Source of the DNA: Shigella phage vB_SboM_Phaginator
Reading direction: 5' to 3' (one strand)
Sequence record: OL615012
Length of the DNA: 64,000 nucleotides
Below, piece after piece: positions 40,300-51,707 of this stretch. The notes below the pieces were generated by a model, which had not been told where the DNA came from, did not search any database, and worked only from the letters and a program-made list of their open reading frames with translations. Within the stretch, counting starts at the first letter, position 1. Each line of letters begins with the position of its first letter. The position numbers were made by a program, and so were the translations under genes.

Positions 40300-40770
40300 T
40301 TAATCATGTGTCCACACCCCATCGGTATTTGACCAAAGTCGCTGATTATCTGATCCTCGCCACAGCTTTTTAGTCGGAAGATTTTTCTCATACTTCCCAT
40401 CAATAATAACATCAACATATTTAAGCATTTCTAGTTGTTTAATATCTTCAAACTTATATCCTGTCCACAACCAAATGCTTTTATTGGGATAAAGATTTTT
40501 TACTGTTTGAACAATGCAATGAATAACATCTCGGTTATCAGGATAGAGAGGGTCACCTCCGGTTATAGTCAATCCTTCTATATAATCATTATTCAAACAT
40601 TCAATTAATTGTTCTAGTGTTTCACTAGTGAATGGAATACCATTTCTAGCATTCCATGTTGATTTATTATAACACCCTTCGCATTTATGCAAACAACCTG
40701 TAACGAAAAGAACGACCCTGCAACCAGGGCCATTCACAAAATCGCAAGGATAAAATCTATCATAATTCAT
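40300..40770 (-). CDS. nrdG: anaerobic ribonucleotide reductase activase NrdG (radical SAM)
   Basis: 156-aa ORF with CLHKCEGCYN cluster; T4 NrdG length. Confidence 0.9.
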   Translation of the reverse strand: MNYDRFYPCDFVNGPGCRVVLFVTGCLHKCEGCYNKSTWNARNGIPFTSETLEQLIECLNNDYIEGLTITGGDPLYPDNRDVIHCIVQTVKNLYPNKSIWLWTGYKFEDIKQLEMLKYVDVIIDGKYEKNLPTKKLWRGSDNQRLWSNTDGVWTHD

Positions 40771-42584
40771 TGGTGTTTAACCCTATGCATGATTTCTTTA
40801 TTTTTACCGAGATTAAATCCGCGCTCGTTCGGATTTCCCAAATAACCGCATGTTCTTCTTATGGTATTCATCTTTTTAGGATCAGTTTCTCCACAAATAG
40901 AACAAACAAATCCGTTTTCAGTAGGAGTCATTTCATGGGTACTTCCACACGTAAAACATTTATCTACTGGCATGTTAACACCAAAATAATCTAAATGCTG
41001 TGCAGCATAATCCCATACGGCCTCAAGACCTTTTAGATTATTTTTCATATCAGGAAGTTCAACATAAGAAATGTGACCACCTGTCGCAATGAAATGATAT
41101 GGCGCTTCACGAGAAATCTTTTCAAACGGAGTAATATTTTCTTCTACTGAAACATGGAAACTATTAGTGTACCAGCCTTTATCAGTAACATCTTTTACGC
41201 TTCCATATTTTTCTGTATCAAGTTTACAGAAGCGATAACAAAGGTTTTCAGCAGGAGTAGAATACAAGCTAAAAGCAAATCCGGTTCTTTCAGTCCACTG
41301 TTTAAGACGAGCATTCATTTTAGTTAAAATTTCTTGTCCAATATCACGACCGACAAGAATATTCAATTCGTGAATACCAATGTATCCTAGAGACACTGAA
41401 CTTCTGCCATTTTTAAATAACTCAATTATATCGTCATCAGGTTTAAGACGAACCCCGAATGCACCTTCTTGGTAAAGAATAGGAGCAACAGTCGCTTTAA
41501 CTCCTTTTAAGGAACTAATTCTACACATCAAAGCTTCAAAACATAAATCCATTCGTTCATTGAATAATTCAACAAATTTCTGTTCATTGAATTGTGTTCC
41601 AATATAAGAATCTAATGCGATACGAGGAAGATTCAGTGTTACAACACCGAGATTATTACGTCCATCAAGAATTTCATTGCCAGTCGAATCTTTCCATACA
41701 CTCAAGAAACTGCGGCAACCCATTGGAGAAACAGGAATAGATGAACCAGTGATAGCTTTATTGTTCTTAGCTGAAATAATATCAGGATACATCCTTTTGC
41801 TTGCACACTCTAGAGCAAGCTGTTTAATATCATAGTTCGGATCGTCTTTGTAAAGATTAACACCTTCTTCAACGAACATAACAAGCTTAGGGAAAATAGG
41901 AGTTATCCCATCACGACCAAGACCTTTAATGCGATTTTTCAGAATTGCTTTCTGAATCATTCGTTCAGTCCAGTCAGTTCCCGTACCAAATGTAATTGTT
42001 ACAAAAGGCGTTTGTCCGTTTGAACTAAAGAGAGTATTTACTTCATATTCATAAGCTTGGAATGCATCGTATACGTCTTTTTCTGTTTTAGATTGAGCAT
42101 AATTCAACGCATCAGCGATTTGCCATTTTTCTGCATCCTCAATATGTTTTGCATAGGTGCGTTTAACATAAGGAGAAAGTACTTTATCTACATTCGCAAA
42201 AGTCGTTCCGCCATATTGATGGGAAGCAACTTGCGCAGTAATTTGTGCCATAATTGCAGTAGCAACGCCAATTGATTTAGGAGTTTCAATCTGCGCATTA
42301 CCAAGCTTAAATCCGTTCTCAAGCATTCCTTTTAAATCTACTAAACAGCAATTAGTAAATGGAAGAGCAGGGGAATAATCAATATCATGGAAATGAATAA
42401 TTCCGCTTTCATGCGCTTTCATAATAAAAGACGGGACCATATTTTTGGCAATGTGTTTAGACACAATACCAGCCATAAGGTCCCGTTGAGTTGGAAAAAC
42501 ACGAGAATCTTTATTAGCATTCTCGTTTAAAAGGTCTTTATTAGTTTTATGAATCAATCCTTCAATTTCTTTTTCAATTGTCAT
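40767..42584 (-). CDS. nrdD: anaerobic ribonucleoside-triphosphate reductase NrdD, uninterrupted
   Basis: 605-aa continuous ORF with C-terminal zinc ribbon CFTCGS...CSICG; T4 NrdD is 605 aa from two exons. Confidence 0.9.
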   Translation of the reverse strand: MTIEKEIEGLIHKTNKDLLNENANKDSRVFPTQRDLMAGIVSKHIAKNMVPSFIMKAHESGIIHFHDIDYSPALPFTNCCLVDLKGMLENGFKLGNAQIETPKSIGVATAIMAQITAQVASHQYGGTTFANVDKVLSPYVKRTYAKHIEDAEKWQIADALNYAQSKTEKDVYDAFQAYEYEVNTLFSSNGQTPFVTITFGTGTDWTERMIQKAILKNRIKGLGRDGITPIFPKLVMFVEEGVNLYKDDPNYDIKQLALECASKRMYPDIISAKNNKAITGSSIPVSPMGCRSFLSVWKDSTGNEILDGRNNLGVVTLNLPRIALDSYIGTQFNEQKFVELFNERMDLCFEALMCRISSLKGVKATVAPILYQEGAFGVRLKPDDDIIELFKNGRSSVSLGYIGIHELNILVGRDIGQEILTKMNARLKQWTERTGFAFSLYSTPAENLCYRFCKLDTEKYGSVKDVTDKGWYTNSFHVSVEENITPFEKISREAPYHFIATGGHISYVELPDMKNNLKGLEAVWDYAAQHLDYFGVNMPVDKCFTCGSTHEMTPTENGFVCSICGETDPKKMNTIRRTCGYLGNPNERGFNLGKNKEIMHRVKHQ

Positions 42585-44685: not shown

Positions 44686-44943
44686 TTATTCCTTAATTCC
44701 TAGTACTTGTTTAAAAGTCTCATCGTAATCAAGACTTTGGCCTGTTTGTTCTTTATGTTTGTATATAATATCACTTACTTCTAATAGCATATTTTTGTAT
44801 GAACGAGTTAAAGCAGATTTAAGCACGCTGTATCTATCAGGAAATTTACCATGTTCATTATAATAAGCTATTGCTAATTCACGGACTGCCTTTTCAGCAG
44901 CCTCCATATATTCTTTACGCTTGGTCATTTTCTTCTCGGTCAA
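44686..44943 (-). CDS. hypothetical protein (85 aa), 1st ORF after nrdC
   Basis: ORF-track ORF; positional equivalent of T4 nrdC.1. Confidence 0.55.
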
Positions 44944-45211
44944 ATCGGTGTTTACAATGGCGACATTTATAACGAAGATTACTAGTCTGCCAATGAACTA
45001 ATTGTACCTGTTCAGTACCGCATTCAGGGCAATTAGGAACGTTTTTAGAAGCCCTTTCGCGACGCTTAACCATAGCCATAATGGCATCCCATGCTGGAGG
45101 TTTAAAATCTAAATCGTCAGTAACTAGCAGTCCTTTATCAAACCCAGCGCATGGAGTCCATTCAGGAAAATCTGAAGCTTCGGCAATATCTTCTAATAAA
45201 CGCTTTTTCAT
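44915..45211 (-). CDS. zinc-ribbon protein (98 aa), 2nd ORF after nrdC
   Basis: CPECG...CRHCKHRF four-Cys ribbon. Confidence 0.6.
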
Positions 45212-46134
45212 TTCAGTACCTCAATAGCATCACGTAAACCATTTGCTTTGGCGGTTAAAGCCTTAAGAACTTTAGTATGCTCTTCAATCTGTTTTTCAAC
45301 TTCAATCAAACGAGCACTGAGATATTCGCGTTCTTCTTTCATAGTATCATTCCCACGATTGGGCTTTGGCGTAGGTTTAAATTTACTAGGGTCCTTTAAC
45401 TTAATAACAACTTTAGTTTCAAACAGTGAAAGACCATAATTCGTATTATCATCAAAGGATTCAACTACGTCCATTTTAGACAATAACGTACGAAGATTAT
45501 AAGTCAAAGAACGAATCGTTTTATTATGTTTATTAGCTTCACATGGTTTCATATATGGAAGATTTTTATATATTTCATGTGGAGCACAAACAATAATTGA
45601 CAATTCAAATAGTCCATTCTGTGATGATGGAATGAATTTAGCCGTAACCCAATCTTTTACATTTACATTAATAGTACGGTCATCGCCATGACAAAACAGT
45701 CTACGAGAATGCTTAAAAAGCATATTCACATTATTATTAAATTCGTGTGAAAACTCACTAGCAAATTTTTCTTTACTATTTTTAGAAAACCATTCTTCTA
45801 AATAAGTTCTTTTCACGTCATTAATAATATTAAATGTAACAACATTAGCATTTGATACATTAGTCTCAATATAGCTTGGATACATAAATTTTTTAACATT
45901 ATTAACAGCTATCACAGAAGATAGTAATCGGGAACGTTTAAACCATTCAAGCAAATTACCTAACGAATGAGAATAAGCGTTTTGAGTATCTTTACAAATA
46001 TGGTTTTCCCATCCAATATAGTCTAAAAAATCACGAAGAATATTATTGATTACTGCTCTGTGTCCGATTTGATAATTACGGTGTTTAGTAATAAGACTGT
46101 CAAAATAATCAATATAATGCTTACGAGTTTTCAT
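45208..46134 (-). CDS. hypothetical protein (308 aa) with C-terminal coiled coil, 3rd ORF after nrdC
   Basis: Globular N-domain, Pro-rich linker KPTPKPNRG, heptad-rich C-terminal ~50 aa. Confidence 0.65.
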   Translation of the reverse strand: MKTRKHYIDYFDSLITKHRNYQIGHRAVINNILRDFLDYIGWENHICKDTQNAYSHSLGNLLEWFKRSRLLSSVIAVNNVKKFMYPSYIETNVSNANVVTFNIINDVKRTYLEEWFSKNSKEKFASEFSHEFNNNVNMLFKHSRRLFCHGDDRTINVNVKDWVTAKFIPSSQNGLFELSIIVCAPHEIYKNLPYMKPCEANKHNKTIRSLTYNLRTLLSKMDVVESFDDNTNYGLSLFETKVVIKLKDPSKFKPTPKPNRGNDTMKEEREYLSARLIEVEKQIEEHTKVLKALTAKANGLRDAIEVLK

Positions 46135-46186
46135 GTTCTTCTCACTTGGTTAATGATTTATACTCCGAGCCATCCTTGGCTTTAAA

Positions 46187-47188
46187 TTACTTAATTAACT
46201 GTAAAGCTTGTTCAAGACGATCCAAGCGATTGACAGATTCTTCCCAAATCTTTTTAGCCTGCTCATATTCTTTCTGCGCTTTATTAGAAATTTCTAGAAC
46301 TTCTTTATAAGCTTTTTCTAGTGCAATAACTTCTGGACGAATTTCTGCCGGTTCAGGCGAATCATCAAGATTATCCATTAGTTCCTCAAGGGTAGTTTCT
46401 TCTTTAGGAGTATTCACAATTTCATCACATTTTTGTTGGTAAATTTCTTTACTAGTAGGTGAATAAGTACATTTCACTTCACGAAGACTAATTACAATTT
46501 TATATCCTTCCCAGCCGCATATATTCTTAAAAGGATATGTATGAATATTTTCTACTGTTTCCATACAAAGTAATGCGGTCTCTAATTGACGAGTTATAGT
46601 GCTAGCAATTGAGAAAAATTTATTAATGTTCTTTTGGTTAGTTTCTGGTGTAAAAAATCCATAATTCACAAAAATAGATACTTTATTTTTATCAAGTTCA
46701 TATTCTTTTATGATAATCATATCAGAAGCCAAAGGATGAATTTGACGATAATCGCCATAACATAATTTAGAAGCTGATTTTAGAATCTGTCCTTTGAAAA
46801 GTCTGAAATTACTAATCCAACGACGAGTAAAAATATTCTCAGGGTCTTCTTTATTATTAAGATGATAAGAATTAACATCACCGAACCAATTATATCCTAC
46901 TACATCTTTGGTTCGTTTAATTTCTTTCCCAAAATTACCAAGAATATCCCGATTAACCAAATATGAAAGAAGACGAGACTCTTTAAAGGTTTTCTTGATA
47001 ACATCTTTATCTACACGGCTAGAAATTTTACGAATTTCATGAATAAATTTAGTAGAAGAAACAATACTTGCATCAACACTATTGAGCCATTGATTGATAA
47101 TAGAAAGAACGATATTTTGACCAAACATCGGTATAGCTTTATCATCAATAACGCTATTGAATGATTTGATATATTCGTTACGAGTCAT
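46187..47188 (-). CDS. hypothetical protein (~333 aa) with C-terminal coiled coil, 4th ORF after nrdC
   Basis: Trimmed to MTRNEYIKSF... after GAGGAG; Pro-rich linker then coiled-coil tail. Confidence 0.65.
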   Translation of the reverse strand: MTRNEYIKSFNSVIDDKAIPMFGQNIVLSIINQWLNSVDASIVSSTKFIHEIRKISSRVDKDVIKKTFKESRLLSYLVNRDILGNFGKEIKRTKDVVGYNWFGDVNSYHLNNKEDPENIFTRRWISNFRLFKGQILKSASKLCYGDYRQIHPLASDMIIIKEYELDKNKVSIFVNYGFFTPETNQKNINKFFSIASTITRQLETALLCMETVENIHTYPFKNICGWEGYKIVISLREVKCTYSPTSKEIYQQKCDEIVNTPKEETTLEELMDNLDDSPEPAEIRPEVIALEKAYKEVLEISNKAQKEYEQAKKIWEESVNRLDRLEQALQLIK

Positions 47189-47216
47189 AATAATCTCCTC
47201 AGTAGAAAGTAAGAAC

Positions 47217-47246
47217 ATTATACCACATCCTTGTGGCAATGTAAAC
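47217..47246 (-). promoter_or_regulatory. T4-type early promoter
   Basis: Minus strand GTTTAC-18 nt-TGGTATAAT. Confidence 0.7.
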
Positions 47247-48265
47247 TAGTTCAGTGCATTTAGTGCATTGTTCAGTTTAGAACGTTGCTTCGTAAGATTT
47301 TTGACTTTTTCTTGAGCTTTTTCCAACATCTTTTCAGCTTCTAGCACTTCATTGGTCGCTTTAACGAGTTCATCATCTACTGCCTTAAGAGACTTCTCAA
47401 TCGCGTCAGCGTGCCATTTTTCTACAGGTTTAAAATTTGAATTTTCAGTAGGAAGAAAATTCACTTTATTAAGTTTACATGCATCTATATTGCTTGAGCT
47501 ATACATCCAAAATTTAGGATCGTTTGATAAGTAATTGGATAAATTTAAGTTATCTTGCACTTCCTGCTTTTTCTCTTGCGGGACTTCGTCCTTTCTCAAA
47601 AAATCGTATTTAAATGAAACGATCATATCAAGTTCATATGATGTTGTATCTAACTTAAATCGTTCAAAACGAGGTAAAATCTTAGATTGAACAGCAGCAA
47701 CAACATCCATATACTTAAATGCTTCTGTCAACTGTGATTTAAGACATTCACAAATTGAAAGAGAATTTTTTGTATTAGGTTTAAAGCTAATTCGTGCAGT
47801 TCTATTATTTTCTTTTAACGGTCTTACTTCCATCTGAAGAGTATAACCATCAAATTTCAGGTTCTTTAAGTTAATATCAGAGCCTTTTAATCGACTAGCA
47901 GTAGACAAAATTTGCTTTAATTGTCTACGGAACAGAGCAATAAATCTCCATTCAATACGATAATGATTCGGATTGAAAAATCCAGATGATAAATCGACCT
48001 TACTTTGACCAACGCCTTGAACAAATAGAGGATTTTTATAATCAATAGTTTTACAGAAATCGGTGAGCTGCTCACGAGCAGTCATTTGTGTAATATATCC
48101 CGCTTTACTAAAATGACGTAACCATTCACTGCTATTCATATACTTAAAGTGAATATCACGATTAACTTTATCAGGGTCTAAATTATTTTGGCACAAAAAT
48201 GTCATAACATCACGAGTATAGCTGGCATTACGAACCATATCTTCAATTTGAGAACGAGTTTTCAT
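47246..48265 (-). CDS. hypothetical protein (339 aa) with C-terminal coiled coil, 5th ORF after nrdC
   Basis: Coiled-coil tail ...LEAEKMLEKAQEKVKNLTKQRSKLNNALNALN. Confidence 0.65.
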   Translation of the reverse strand: MKTRSQIEDMVRNASYTRDVMTFLCQNNLDPDKVNRDIHFKYMNSSEWLRHFSKAGYITQMTAREQLTDFCKTIDYKNPLFVQGVGQSKVDLSSGFFNPNHYRIEWRFIALFRRQLKQILSTASRLKGSDINLKNLKFDGYTLQMEVRPLKENNRTARISFKPNTKNSLSICECLKSQLTEAFKYMDVVAAVQSKILPRFERFKLDTTSYELDMIVSFKYDFLRKDEVPQEKKQEVQDNLNLSNYLSNDPKFWMYSSSNIDACKLNKVNFLPTENSNFKPVEKWHADAIEKSLKAVDDELVKATNEVLEAEKMLEKAQEKVKNLTKQRSKLNNALNALN

Positions 48266-48273
48266 GGTGTTCC

Positions 48274-49182
48274 TTAAGATTTAAGTAAATCAATAATTTT
48301 AATTAACTTTTCACGCTCAGATTTAGCTTTACTACTCAATCCAGATAGTCTGAAAATTTCATCATCATATTGTTGAATAGAAATATTCAGCTCTTCAATT
48401 TGCTTATTAAAATAATCAATTTGTTCAGAATGTTTTTCGTTACTACGAACTGGTACAGGTTTTGTAGGCAATTTAGTTGAACTGGATTCATCCGGGCGAT
48501 AAATTAAAATACAACTTGAACCAATTGGACATTTTGCACCAGATGAATATTCTAATGTTCCAGCTTCTTTTAAAACTTCAAAAGCTAAACAGAGATGATG
48601 CCCCATATTAACATAATCTGTAGAGCGAGCTCTGATGTAATAATCATCTCCGCGAATACTAAATTTAAAGCATTTAAGGTCTTCTGTATTATTGGTCTTA
48701 AAAATCATTTGTTTATCTAGACCTTTAGCTAATCGAGCGCCTAATGCTAATAATCGTCGTTGATTTTCCCACAAATCCGCAATCATTTGGTCAAATGATA
48801 ATTTCGGCATTAGTCGACCATAAAGGTCGTATCCTTTATTATAATTGCGAAGGATTTCACTCGCGTTAATACGAGACAATGCTCCAATTTTATTAAGGGC
48901 TTTCATGATGCGATTAGATAAACCCATTCCAGACCCGTTTGTTCGCTGTAAATGTTTTTCTAATCCAAATCCAATATCAACTTTAAACTTATCTAAAATT
49001 TCTGCATGAACATCTCTGTCAATAACATTCAAATCCAAAGTTGGGTTAAATCTATGAAAAAATTTATCTGGCTCTCCACGACGAAGTACAGTCCATTCAT
49101 TCAATTTTTTATTAACTAAAGATTTAATTACTGCATTGACATTATTAATTACTACTGACATATTTTCCTCACTCAATTTCAA
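48274..49182 (-). CDS. hypothetical protein (302 aa) with C-terminal coiled coil, 6th ORF after nrdC
   Basis: Pro-rich linker KLPTKPVPV then coiled-coil tail. Confidence 0.65.
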   Translation of the reverse strand: MKLSEENMSVVINNVNAVIKSLVNKKLNEWTVLRRGEPDKFFHRFNPTLDLNVIDRDVHAEILDKFKVDIGFGLEKHLQRTNGSGMGLSNRIMKALNKIGALSRINASEILRNYNKGYDLYGRLMPKLSFDQMIADLWENQRRLLALGARLAKGLDKQMIFKTNNTEDLKCFKFSIRGDDYYIRARSTDYVNMGHHLCLAFEVLKEAGTLEYSSGAKCPIGSSCILIYRPDESSSTKLPTKPVPVRSNEKHSEQIDYFNKQIEELNISIQQYDDEIFRLSGLSSKAKSEREKLIKIIDLLKS

Positions 49183-49631: not shown

Positions 49632-50159
49632 TTATGCGAGTACCGTCTTTAACCGTTCTTCAAACTTCCGAAGAGTATTTTGGCGTTCAGCTCTTTGCTT
49701 TTTGTAAGTTTCAATACGCTCTGAAATGAGAGTGTATCGTTCATTTACTGATTCTTTCATAAAATCAGGAATTTCACGAGAAGCTTTAATCTCGTCAAAT
49801 TTATCAATAACAGCTTGCTCTTCAGCAATTAAGTTATCATACATCAAAATATCTTTCTTGATGAACTCAATATCTTCTTGAGTTACACGAGATAATTTAG
49901 ATGCTTTATCCTTTTTGTACTGTTCGTTAGTATCACGAGACCAGTGTAATGTACGATTTTTATTCGTATTTTTGTAAATTTCTACAATACCAATCTCATC
50001 GATAATAACGATCCAATTCCAACGGGATTTGTAAATTTGTCCTCCATCAACCGTGATTTCACCTCCGATTGAGATGTCATTAAAGAACTTGCTTTGTGCT
50101 TCTGATTTAAATTTACCATCGTTGTAATTTACCAGGTTGAAAATATCTTTAGCGTTCAT
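49632..50159 (-). CDS. hypothetical protein (175 aa), 8th ORF after nrdC
   Basis: Trimmed to MNAKDIFNLVNY... after GGAGGA; the track N-terminus is translated promoter. Confidence 0.6.
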   Translation of the reverse strand: MNAKDIFNLVNYNDGKFKSEAQSKFFNDISIGGEITVDGGQIYKSRWNWIVIIDEIGIVEIYKNTNKNRTLHWSRDTNEQYKKDKASKLSRVTQEDIEFIKKDILMYDNLIAEEQAVIDKFDEIKASREIPDFMKESVNERYTLISERIETYKKQRAERQNTLRKFEERLKTVLA

Positions 50160-51680: not shown

Positions 51681-51705
51681 AAAAAAAGGGAGCCCGAAGG
51701 CTCCC
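51681..51705 (-). terminator. intrinsic terminator
   Basis: Minus strand GGGAGCC-UUCG-GGCUCCC followed by UUUUUUU. Confidence 0.75.
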
Positions 51706-51707
51706 TA

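What the first reader, a model, noticed from the sequence alone, without database searches (positions are those of the whole stretch)
45208..49182. Four consecutive 300-350-aa ORFs sharing a globular-domain, Pro-rich linker, C-terminal coiled-coil architecture
The 3rd to 6th ORFs after nrdC (308, ~333, 339, 302 aa) each end in a ~50-residue heptad-rich tail (for example LEAEKMLEKAQEKVKNLTKQRSKLNNALNALN) preceded by a Pro-rich linker (KPTPKPNRG, PEPAEIRPE, NFKPVEK, KLPTKPVPV). Two begin MKTR. Primary sequence similarity of the N-domains is weak by eye. This looks like a diverged tandem paralog family, possibly with swapped binding domains on a common oligomerisation tail.
Basis: inference. Interest (0 to 1): 0.45.

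Follow-up and report, generated by a model that had tools for sequence, protein, structure and literature searches.

The report
Tandem paralogs of a phage anti-defence gene
Four neighbouring early genes of a T4-like phage (nrdC.3 to nrdC.6) are diverged copies of one gene, and because one copy (nrdC.5) is already known to disarm the bacterial immune protein Dsr1, the other three are good candidates for disarming other host defences.

Summary
The window is a Tequatrovirus (T4-like) genome. On the minus strand lie nrdC.3 (308 aa), nrdC.4 (333 aa), nrdC.5 (339 aa) and nrdC.6 (295 aa from its likely ATG).

Each protein has three parts:
- a globular region of about 230 aa;
- a proline-containing linker that is predicted disordered;
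- a C-terminal heptad helix of about 50 residues.

The N-domains are diverged homologues, not unrelated swapped modules. The support is:
- motifs shared in register across all four;
- profile comparisons, a leave-one-family-out HMM test with a permutation control, and bridging single-copy relatives;
- AlphaFold2 models of nrdC.4 and nrdC.5 with the same order of secondary-structure elements;
- Foldseek matches from those models to nrdC.3, to nrdC.6 and to a common set of T4-like phage proteins.

Databases split the four into three families (PF26897, PF23882/DUF7235, PF26899). The superfamily is very small: 33 hits among 1.84 billion representative proteins. Every member whose genomic context I fetched lies at the nrdC locus of a T4-like phage, in one, three or four copies.

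T4 nrdC.5 has been shown experimentally to counteract Dsr1. The flanking genes 49.2, nrdC.1 and nrdC.8 are reported inhibitors of OLD, Septu and Druantia III.

Best reading: a paralogous set of non-enzymatic anti-defence binders. This is a new member of a known kind and of moderate interest.

The parts
45208..46134 (-). nrdC.3 (308 aa), c3/c4 lineage; the extra Tequatrovirus copy
   Evidence: ORF. phrog_1435, E 1.7e-100. hhalign to the c4 family 96%. Identical to a protein of Shigella phage vB_SboM_Phaginator. Three allele classes in GenBank phages.
46187..47188 (-). nrdC.4 (333 aa), PF26897 Phage_T4_Y04OP lineage
   Evidence: ORF with GAGGAG before the ATG. Homologues at 88-96% identity carry PF26897. 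AlphaFold2 pLDDT 83.6, pTM 0.69.
47246..48265 (-). nrdC.5 (339 aa), DUF7235; syntenic counterpart of the T4 gene shown to counteract Dsr1
   Evidence: PF23882, E 4e-117, full length. 93% identical to T4 NrdC.5 at the same position. Function reported in PMC9391042. AlphaFold2 pLDDT 69.
48274..49161 (-). nrdC.6 (295 aa from ATG 49161; the ORF extends to a TTG at 49182), PF26899 Phage_T4_Y05B lineage
   Evidence: ORF. Start context. phrog_2257. Homologues at 96-99% identity are 295-296 aa and carry PF26899. The c4 model hits the BFVD model of JS10 nrdC.6, E 1.6e-4.
45211..45351 (-). C-terminal heptad helix of nrdC.3 (residues 262-308)
   Evidence: Heptad score z 4.4; 11/14 a/d positions hydrophobic.
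46190..46336 (-). C-terminal heptad helix of nrdC.4 (residues 285-333)
   Evidence: AlphaFold2 helix 285-332. 10/14 a/d positions hydrophobic.
47249..47419 (-). C-terminal heptad helix of nrdC.5 (residues 283-339), preceded by the conserved KPVEKWH motif
   Evidence: AlphaFold2 helix 283-338. 15/16 a/d positions hydrophobic. Top heptad score in the window.
48277..48435 (-). C-terminal heptad region of nrdC.6 (residues 243-295 of the 295-aa protein), with a Gly-containing break
   Evidence: Heptad score z 3.4; 10/15 a/d positions hydrophobic.
47217..47245 (-). Near-consensus sigma-70 (T4 early-type) promoter directly upstream of nrdC.4
   Evidence: TTTACA-17-TATAAT, 11 of 12 matches plus an extended TG; the best site in the 9-kb scan. 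Sequence.

Best explanation
nrdC.3, nrdC.4, nrdC.5 and nrdC.6 are four paralogues of one small protein superfamily. Every member whose genomic context I fetched lies at the nrdC locus of a T4-like phage.

**Origin (inferred from copy number and synteny).** More distant T4-like phages carry a single copy. Mosigvirus and the Dhakavirus/Gaprivervirus-type phages carry three copies. Tequatrovirus carries a fourth, from a c3/c4 duplication.

**Architecture (shown by sequence and models).** Each protein has an N-terminal helical bundle and an alpha/beta subdomain. A flexible, proline-containing linker of 25-60 residues follows. A C-terminal amphipathic helix of about 50 residues ends the protein.

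**Function (one member shown, three inferred).** The genes are dispensable, polymorphic accessory genes. T4 nrdC.5 is an experimentally shown counter-defence gene against the SIR2 NADase Dsr1. The most likely function of the whole array is therefore counter-defence, with each paralogue neutralising a different host immune protein or variant.

**Mechanism (inferred).** They act as stoichiometric binders, not enzymes. The diverged globular region recognises the target. The heptad helix oligomerises the protein, which would give avidity against multimeric defence proteins. The flexible linker lets the heads reach their sites.
For: **Identity and locus**
- The region matches 502 phage records, nearly all named as phages of Escherichia, Shigella, Yersinia or Salmonella; T4 is a Tequatrovirus and its copies are annotated NrdC.4 and NrdC.5.

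**Paralogy**
- hhalign c3 to c4 family: 96%.
- Colinear hhalign alignments: c3/c4 vs c5 P 1.3e-4, c5 vs c6 P 9e-4, c3/c4 vs c6 P 0.03.
- Four motifs in register across all families.
- Leave-one-family-out HMM: 49 bits for c4, against at most 11 bits in 8 column-permuted controls. All 16 c3/c4 members rank above 797 decoys.
- The N-domain alone gives 40.8 bits, with 16/16 members above background.
- Single-copy P0244 and P0247 hit both the c3/c4 and the c5 N-domain HMMs.
- Same secondary-structure order in the two AlphaFold2 models.
- The c4 model hits a 308-aa protein of Yersinia phage fPS-65, taken to be nrdC.3 (8e-8), and JS10 nrdC.6 (1.6e-4). The c4 and c5 models share the targets Cronus, Mineola, PM2 and fHe-Yen9-01 at probability 1.0.

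**Copy number and synteny**
-.

**Non-enzymatic character**
- The only columns at least 90% conserved across 69 sequences are F, L, A and P.
- No Pfam, PDB-sequence or PADLOC enzymatic match.

**Counter-defence context**
- nrdC.5 expression restores T4 infection on cells carrying Dsr1 (PMC9391042).
- gp49.2 inhibits OLD (PMC13096335).
- nrdC.1 inhibits Septu, and bas37_0203 inhibits Druantia III (bioRxiv 10.1101/2025.11.20.689424). bas37_0203 is in the same 90% cluster as the window's nrdC.8.

**Accessory behaviour**
- T4 lacking nrdC.1-6 is viable (PMC9825161).
- nrdC.4 is truncated in phages G8 and T2, and a c5-c3 deletion chimera exists.
- nrdC.3 has three allele classes, with divergence concentrated in the middle domain.
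- nrdC.3 to nrdC.5 are less conserved than most flanking genes.

**Early expression**
- Near-consensus promoter in front of nrdC.4.

**Coiled coil**
-.
Against: - Only nrdC.5 has an experimental phenotype. Nothing is known for nrdC.3, nrdC.4 or nrdC.6, and paralogues can differ in function.
- How nrdC.5 blocks Dsr1 (direct binding or something indirect) is not established in the papers I read.
- Cross-family sequence statistics are modest. hhalign probabilities are 54%, 22% and 2% without secondary structure, and single-family HMMs do not find the other families significantly.
- nrdC.3 and nrdC.6 were not modelled here. Their fold rests on Foldseek hits of the c4 model to BFVD models, with low TM-scores (0.2-0.5) because of the floppy tail.
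- The c5 model is only of medium confidence (pLDDT 69).
- The oligomeric state of the tails is untested. The c4 and c6 tails have weaker heptad occupancy.
- nrdC.6 is highly conserved among Tequatroviruses (94-99%), which does not look like a fast arms race.
Confidence: 0.6

Rival explanations
1. The paralogues are subunits of one hetero-oligomeric complex. Their related C-terminal helices would pack into a mixed coiled-coil bundle, and the complex as a whole would carry out one function (anti-Dsr1 or another), rather than each protein acting alone on its own target.
For: - The tail is a conserved, cross-recognisable module. Tail HMMs cross-hit between families, and the tail of P0234 scores 37 bits on the c5 tail.
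- The c6-c5-c4 trio always occurs together and in the same order in the Tequatrovirus, Mosigvirus and Dhakavirus/Gaprivervirus-type loci examined.
Against: - nrdC.5 expressed alone from a plasmid restored infection of a deletion mutant on Dsr1 cells. I did not establish whether the other paralogues were still present in that mutant.
- More distant phages carry a single copy.
- nrdC.4 is truncated in phages G8 and T2 while its neighbours stay intact.
- nrdC.3 alleles vary independently of the other three genes.
Confidence: 0.15
2. nrdC.3, nrdC.4 and nrdC.6 are host-takeover or regulatory accessory proteins that bind host proteins unrelated to immunity. Only nrdC.5 was recruited to counter-defence.
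For: - There are no experimental data for the three.
- Many T4 early non-essential proteins modulate host physiology (general T4 knowledge).
- nrdC.6 is strongly conserved, at 94-99%.
Against: - They are homologous to a shown anti-defence protein and lie among four genes reported as anti-defence.
- nrdC.3 shows polymorphism, mosaicism and loss typical of arms-race genes.
- T4 lacking nrdC.1-6 is viable on laboratory hosts.
Confidence: 0.2
3. The four are not homologous. The shared layout (globular head, linker, heptad tail) is convergent or due to chance.
For: - Pfam and PHROGs keep three separate families.
- Pairwise BLASTP is insignificant except for c3-c4.
- Single-family HMMs do not cross-detect the other families.
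Against: - Motifs are in register and the alignments are colinear over the full length.
- The permutation-controlled HMM test is positive.
- Bridging sequences link the families.
- The models share their secondary-structure order and their Foldseek targets.
- The genes have the same length, locus and order across genera.
Confidence: 0.04
4. They are structural or assembly proteins related to tail terminator or tail completion proteins.
For: - Both models give weak Foldseek hits to tail completion or terminator proteins.
Against: - Z stays below 8, with 5-12% identity and about 100 aligned residues of a small alpha/beta fold.
- No sequence-level link was found in a Pfam scan of 69 members.
- The genes lie in the early region behind a sigma-70 promoter and are dispensable.
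- nrdC.5 acts when expressed in the host cytoplasm.
Confidence: 0.02

Closest known systems
T4 NrdC.5 (DUF7235, PF23882), the anti-Dsr1 counter-defence gene of Srikant et al. 2022 (PMC9391042)
   Same: The window's nrdC.5 is its syntenic counterpart: 93% identical, same position, full-length DUF7235 match. nrdC.3, nrdC.4 and nrdC.6 share its architecture and, by the evidence here, its fold and ancestry.
   Different: The three other paralogues are only 15-23% identical to it, are filed in other Pfam and PHROG families, and have no known target. The molecular mechanism of NrdC.5 itself is not described in the papers I read.
DSAD1, the SPbeta-phage inhibitor of the sirtuin defence protein DSR2 (e.g. 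PMC11263360, PMC11087589)
   Same: It is a phage protein reported to suppress a SIR2-domain NADase defence protein. This is the working model I propose for NrdC.5 and Dsr1.
   Different: It comes from a different phage group and acts on a different target (DSR2, not Dsr1). No similarity of sequence or fold to DSAD1 was tested here. The resemblance is functional only.
T4 internal proteins IPI, IPII and IPIII
   Same: They are a set of T4 accessory proteins that share one short common module and have otherwise diverged bodies. Members counteract different host defences: IPI against GmrSD, IPIII against an unknown ECOR17 system.
   Different: Their shared module is an N-terminal capsid-targeting sequence, and they are injected with the DNA. 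The nrdC.3-6 proteins share a C-terminal heptad helix and a homologous globular domain, and are made early in the cell.
Tail terminator / tail completion proteins (lambda gpU 3fz2, T5 p142 8bcp, GTA 6tba, phage 812 8q01_M)
   Different: Z stays below 8 and identity is 5-12%. There is no sequence-profile link. Expression time, dispensability and domain context (extra helical bundle, linker, coiled-coil tail) all differ. This is fold resemblance only; membership is not claimed.

Membership tests
PF26897 Phage_T4_Y04OP (nrdC.3/nrdC.4 family) | Match to the family profile | tested here: met
   **nrdC.4:** 64 homologues down to 33% identity all carry a precomputed PF26897 hit. The model is absent from the local Pfam copy, so nrdC.4 itself gave no hit. 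**nrdC.3:** the same PHROG (phrog_1435, E 1.7e-100), hhalign 96% to the c4 family and a c4 HMM hit of about 1e-15. A direct PF26897 score for nrdC.3 could not be computed.
PF23882 DUF7235 (nrdC.5 family) | Match above the gathering score over the full profile | tested here: met
   nrdC.5 scores 391.5 bits against a cutoff of 30 (E 4e-117), covering profile positions 1-307 of 307.
PF26899 Phage_T4_Y05B (nrdC.6 family) | Match to the family profile | tested here: met
   All 105 homologues of nrdC.6, including those at 96-99% identity, carry PF26899. nrdC.6 also matches phrog_2257 at E 6e-153. The model is not in the local Pfam copy.
Anti-Dsr1 counter-defence protein (T4 NrdC.5) | Same gene as the tested T4 gene by sequence and position | tested here: met
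   The window's nrdC.5 is 93% identical to T4 NrdC.5 and lies between nrdC.4 and nrdC.6, as in T4.
Anti-Dsr1 counter-defence protein (T4 NrdC.5) | Relieves Dsr1-mediated restriction | not testable with these tools
   Shown only for the T4 protein, by plasmid complementation (PMC9391042). Nothing is known for nrdC.3, nrdC.4 or nrdC.6.
Coiled-coil oligomerisation module | Continuous heptad periodicity of hydrophobic a/d positions in a long helix without Pro | tested here: met
   The heptad score exceeds all 200 shuffles for each protein and lies in the C-terminal quarter of each protein. a/d occupancy is 15/16, 11/14, 10/14 and 10/15. AlphaFold2 gives single helices of 48-56 residues. Pfam gives weak coiled-coil-type hits such as CENP-F_leu_zip and V-SNARE_C.
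Coiled-coil oligomerisation module | Actual self-association and its stoichiometry | not testable with these tools
   No multimer prediction or experiment was available.
Tail terminator / tail completion proteins (gpU-like) | Shared fold at a convincing level | tested here: inconclusive
Tail terminator / tail completion proteins (gpU-like) | Sequence-profile relationship to terminator families | tested here: not met
   A Pfam scan of all 69 aligned members at E up to 5 lists no tail terminator or completion family among the 25 most frequent of 60 families. The PDB sequence-profile search returns none.
Tail terminator / tail completion proteins (gpU-like) | Late expression and presence in the virion | not tested
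   The genomic position in the early nrdC cluster, the sigma-70 promoter and dispensability all argue against it.

The most novel reading that the evidence does not exclude
The globular region of this family may be an exapted tail-terminator/tail-completion-like fold that the phage makes early as a decoy. Under this reading, oligomers held together by the C-terminal coiled coil occupy the sensor domains of host immune proteins that recognise conserved virion proteins. They would do so before the real late proteins appear. One such sensor is the TPR sensor of Dsr1, reported to sense major capsid protein (PMC12803255). Gene duplication would then have produced one decoy per sensor class.
Probability: 0.12. 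Interest if true: 0.75.

Novelty: new member of a known kind. Interest (0 to 1): 0.5.

Why it matters
T4 is the best-studied lytic phage, yet nrdC.3, nrdC.4 and nrdC.6 have no assigned function. They are often mis-annotated as "thioredoxin" by proximity to nrdC.

- **Testable prediction.** If they are paralogues of the anti-Dsr1 protein NrdC.5, each should neutralise a defence system. The polymorphic nrdC.3 alleles should differ in target specificity.
- **An anti-defence cluster.** The result joins three database families into one superfamily. It also extends the run of reported inhibitors at this locus (49.2 against OLD, nrdC.1 against Septu, nrdC.5 against Dsr1, nrdC.8 against Druantia III) into a contiguous cluster.
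- **A system for studying diversification.** A family with one, three or four copies in related phages shows how counter-defence repertoires grow by duplication.
- **Practical use.** It bears on predicting the host range of T4-like therapeutic phages.

Tried and rejected
- **Spurious c3-to-c5 link.** The c5 HMM appeared to hit class-2 nrdC.3 alleles at 1e-8. Inspection showed non-colinear alignments with huge inserts, so I discarded this as an artefact.
- **nrdC.8 as a fifth member.** It has a C-terminal heptad stretch (rank 3). It matches neither the superfamily profile search nor the tail HMM (E 12), so I rejected it.
- **The 258-262 aa ORF next to the single-copy members in L017 and L018.** It gives no HMM signal and is not a member.
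- **Sequence searches for a known fold or enzyme.** A PDB profile search gave nothing below E 0.5. PADLOC gave only a coiled-coil-type BrxC stretch. A Pfam scan of 69 members gave only coiled-coil-like or noise hits.
- **DNA-level tandem duplication.** Only 19-23 nt chance matches turned up; the best is the shared SD-ATG-AAAACTCGT start of c3 and c5.
- **IMG/VR scans.** They added few loci, 2 and 7. The family is rare outside sequenced coliphage relatives.
- **P0120 as evidence for homologous recombination between paralogues.** It is a deletion chimera joined at non-equivalent positions (c5 residue 271 to c3 residue 134). It shows only gene flux.
- **Literature.** No paper in the library mentions DUF7235, PF23882 or PF26897. 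Only four papers mention any of nrdC.3 to nrdC.6.

Full report
**What the region is.** The window is a T4-like phage genome. The 3,975-base stretch matches 502 phage records, nearly all named as phages of Escherichia, Shigella, Yersinia or Salmonella; the best is Shigella phage ESh18 at 97%. T4 itself is a Tequatrovirus. The nrdC.3 and nrdC.5 proteins are identical to those of Shigella phage vB_SboM_Phaginator.

The minus strand reads nrdD, 49, pin, 49.x, nrdC, nrdC.1, nrdC.2. The four ORFs of the finding follow, and then nrdC.7 to nrdC.11.

| Gene | Coordinates | Length | Note |
|---|---|---|---|
| nrdC.3 | 45208-46134 | 308 aa | starts MKTR |
| nrdC.4 | 46187-47188 | 333 aa | ATG behind GAGGAG; a TTG further upstream gives the 350-aa ORF |
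| nrdC.5 | 47246-48265 | 339 aa | starts MKTR |

The homologue lengths that favour the 295-aa form of nrdC.6 are.

**Check of the observation.**
- *Heptad tails.* An ad hoc heptad score ranks the four ORFs 1st, 4th, 5th and 6th of the 67 minus-strand ORFs of at least 100 aa. The best window lies in the C-terminal quarter of the protein in each case. None of 200 shuffles per protein reaches the observed score.
- *Register.* A single register places L/I/V/M/A at 15/16, 11/14, 10/14 and 10/15 of the a/d positions for nrdC.5, nrdC.3, nrdC.4 and nrdC.6.
- *Models.* AlphaFold2 gives one unbroken helix at 283-338 in nrdC.5 and 285-332 in nrdC.4. The segment before it has pLDDT below 50: 224-281 in nrdC.5 and 263-287 in nrdC.4.
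- *Linkers.* They hold 7-15% proline, against about 2% elsewhere. One proline just before the helix is nearly invariant across 69 sequences of all families.
- *N-regions.* BLASTP sees only nrdC.3 to nrdC.4, at 23% identity and E 5e-4. There is no DNA repeat.

**Are they paralogues?** Databases split them into three families:
- nrdC.3 and nrdC.4: phrog_1435. nrdC.4 homologues carry PF26897 "Phage_T4_Y04OP".
- nrdC.5: phrog_2351 and PF23882 (DUF7235).
- nrdC.6: phrog_2257 and PF26899 "Phage_T4_Y05B".

Several independent lines join them.

1. *Profile comparison.* Full-length colinear alignments give P 1.3e-4 (c3/c4 vs c5), 9e-4 (c5 vs c6) and 0.03 (c3/c4 vs c6). These are modest values.
2. *Shared motifs.* A joint alignment shows the same motifs in register in all families:
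   - a helix pair "F-K-x-s-r-L-L-S-x-h-h-A-x-x-x-L-x-N-F-x-K";
   - a second helix pair "F-x-x-N-x-x-x-h-L-x-x-A-s-R-L-x-x-G-D";
   - a long helix "L-x-x-A-L-x-x-M";
   - a tail that starts at a conserved P-x-h-x-x-E-K-x-[HY] and ends "K-L-x-x-A-L-x-L-L-K".
3. *Leave-one-family-out test.*
   - An HMM built only from the c5 and c6 rows scores nrdC.4 at 49 bits and ranks all 16 c3/c4 members above 797 decoys.
   - Column-permuted c3/c4 families put through the same procedure reach at most 11 bits in eight trials.
   - When the c3/c4 family is kept out of the alignment altogether, its members still score 18-20 bits, against about 8 bits for the best decoys.
   - The globular region alone gives 40.8 bits. 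The short tail alone gives less.
4. *Bridging sequences.* A superfamily profile search of 1.84 billion representative proteins returned only 33 hits.
   - P0244 and P0247 match both the c3/c4 and the c5 N-domain HMMs.
   - P0241 and P0248 match the c6 HMM strongly and the c5 HMM more weakly.
   - P0234 joins a c3/c4-type body to a c5-type tail.
5. *Structure.* The nrdC.4 model (pLDDT 83.6) and the nrdC.5 model (pLDDT 69) have the same succession of elements:
   - an N-terminal helical bundle;
   - a helix pair, a beta-hairpin, a long helix and a second beta-hairpin;
   - the linker and the long terminal helix.

   Against BFVD, the nrdC.4 model hits a 308-aa protein of Yersinia phage fPS-65, taken to be nrdC.3 (E 8e-8). 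It also hits the nrdC.6 of phage JS10 (E 1.6e-4). Both models hit the same 300-370 aa proteins of phages Cronus, Mineola, PM2 and fHe-Yen9-01 at probability 1.0.

I regard paralogy as about 90% secure. The N-regions are diverged copies, not swapped unrelated domains.

**History of the locus.**
- More distant T4-like contigs carry one copy at the same place, between nrdC-side genes such as Y04M and nrdC.9/nrdC.11-type genes.
- Phages NC-G, MN01, VR20/25/26 and Mosigvirus SF carry three copies, in the order c6-like, c5-like, c4-like.
- Tequatroviruses add nrdC.3.
- The genes are accessory:
  - T4 lacking nrdC.1-6 is viable (PMC9825161).
  - nrdC.4 is truncated in phages G8 and T2.
  - One contig carries an nrdC.5-nrdC.3 deletion chimera.
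- nrdC.3 exists as three allele classes: over 90% identity in 137 records, about 61% in 359 and about 56% in 155. Its first 60 residues and its tail stay 83-100% identical while residues 76-255 fall to 23-73%.
- nrdC.2 to nrdC.5 diverge more between close relatives than nrdC, 49, nrdC.8 or nrdC.10 do.

**Function.**
- T4 nrdC.5 expressed from a plasmid restores plating of a T4 deletion mutant on cells carrying Dsr1 from ECOR17 (PMC9391042). Dsr1 is a SIR2-domain protein thought to deplete NAD+.
- A 2026 preprint reports that the Dsr1 sensor is a TPR domain shared with Avs7 and that it responds to a phage major capsid protein (PMC12803255).
- Neighbouring genes are reported inhibitors: 49.2 of OLD and nrdC.1 of Septu.
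- bas37_0203, reported as an inhibitor of Druantia III, is in the same 90% cluster as the window's nrdC.8.
- Across 69 superfamily sequences, the only nearly invariant residues are F, L, A and P. No enzymatic family is matched.
- A near-consensus sigma-70 promoter sits directly upstream of nrdC.4.

I therefore infer that all four are early-made, non-catalytic binders of host immune proteins. On this model the globular region gives specificity and the heptad helix gives oligomerisation. What is shown: the architecture, the paralogy, the accessory and polymorphic behaviour, and the anti-Dsr1 role of the T4 counterpart. What is inferred: counter-defence roles for nrdC.3, nrdC.4 and nrdC.6, binding as the mechanism, and self-association of the tails.

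**Limits.**
- Only two structures could be modelled, and no multimers.
- The coordinates of the models were not available for direct superposition.
- Cross-family sequence statistics are individually modest.
- The heptad score is home-made.
- The functional inference for three of the four genes rests on homology and context.

**Verdict.** The finding is real and its main interpretation is right. The genes are known hypothetical ORFs of T4-type phages. The new element is their union into one superfamily with the anti-Dsr1 protein NrdC.5, which gives clear and testable predictions. It is a new member of a known kind, with interest 0.5.

Noticed in passing
window 49632-50159 (-), nrdC.8: This 175-aa protein is in the same 90% cluster as bas37_0203 of phage KarlGJung, which a 2025 preprint reports as an inhibitor of Druantia type III. 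It also ends in a heptad-rich stretch (3rd best heptad score in the window) but matches neither the superfamily profile nor the tail HMM.
   Followed up: yes
window 44915-46134 (-), nrdC.2 and nrdC.3: These genes are strongly polymorphic among phages that are otherwise 98-100% identical: 61-66% amino-acid identity to some of T4, G8, L009 and ZN18 and 94-98% to the others. In nrdC.3 the first 60 residues and the tail stay conserved while residues 76-255 diverge. Megablast coverage of many records starts at query base 438 or 676, which suggests recombination boundaries inside nrdC.3.
   Followed up: partly
P0120 (167-kb contig); BFVD A0A482N302 (phage G8) and A0A2Z5WKJ2 (phage T2); L008: P0120 is a deletion chimera that joins nrdC.5 residues 145-271 to class-2 nrdC.3 residues 134-308, with nrdC.4 lost. 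nrdC.4 is present only as fragments of about 155 aa in phages G8 and T2. Both point to ongoing gene loss at the locus.
   Followed up: partly
window 47217-47245 (-) and 47221-47238: The near-consensus early promoter in front of nrdC.4 contains a 7-bp-stem hairpin (TGCCACAAGGATGTGGTA) in its spacer. The terminator scan also flags this hairpin. Its significance is unknown.
   Followed up: no
window 40767-42584 (-), nrdD: nrdD is a single uninterrupted 605-aa ORF here. In T4, nrdD is split by the group I intron that carries I-TevII, and mobC lies between nrdD and nrdG.
   Followed up: no
L017 2898-3686, L018 4151-4927, L016 103-858: A conserved ORF of 251-262 aa (N-terminus IEENRxAxxxHRAKVEKRAEELN) sits immediately upstream of the single-copy family member in distant T4-like contigs. 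It has no Pfam hit and is unrelated to the family.
   Followed up: partly
window 51687-51706: A strong GC-rich hairpin (8 pairs, 6 of them G-C) followed by a T-run lies on the minus strand at the junction of nrdC.11 and nrdC.10. It is the best terminator-like site in the 9-kb scan.
   Followed up: no
GenBank annotations under the match: In many phage records, nrdC.1 to nrdC.8 homologues are annotated "thioredoxin". This appears to be name propagation from the nrdC.x gene symbols. None of the four proteins has a thioredoxin or glutaredoxin match.
   Followed up: yes
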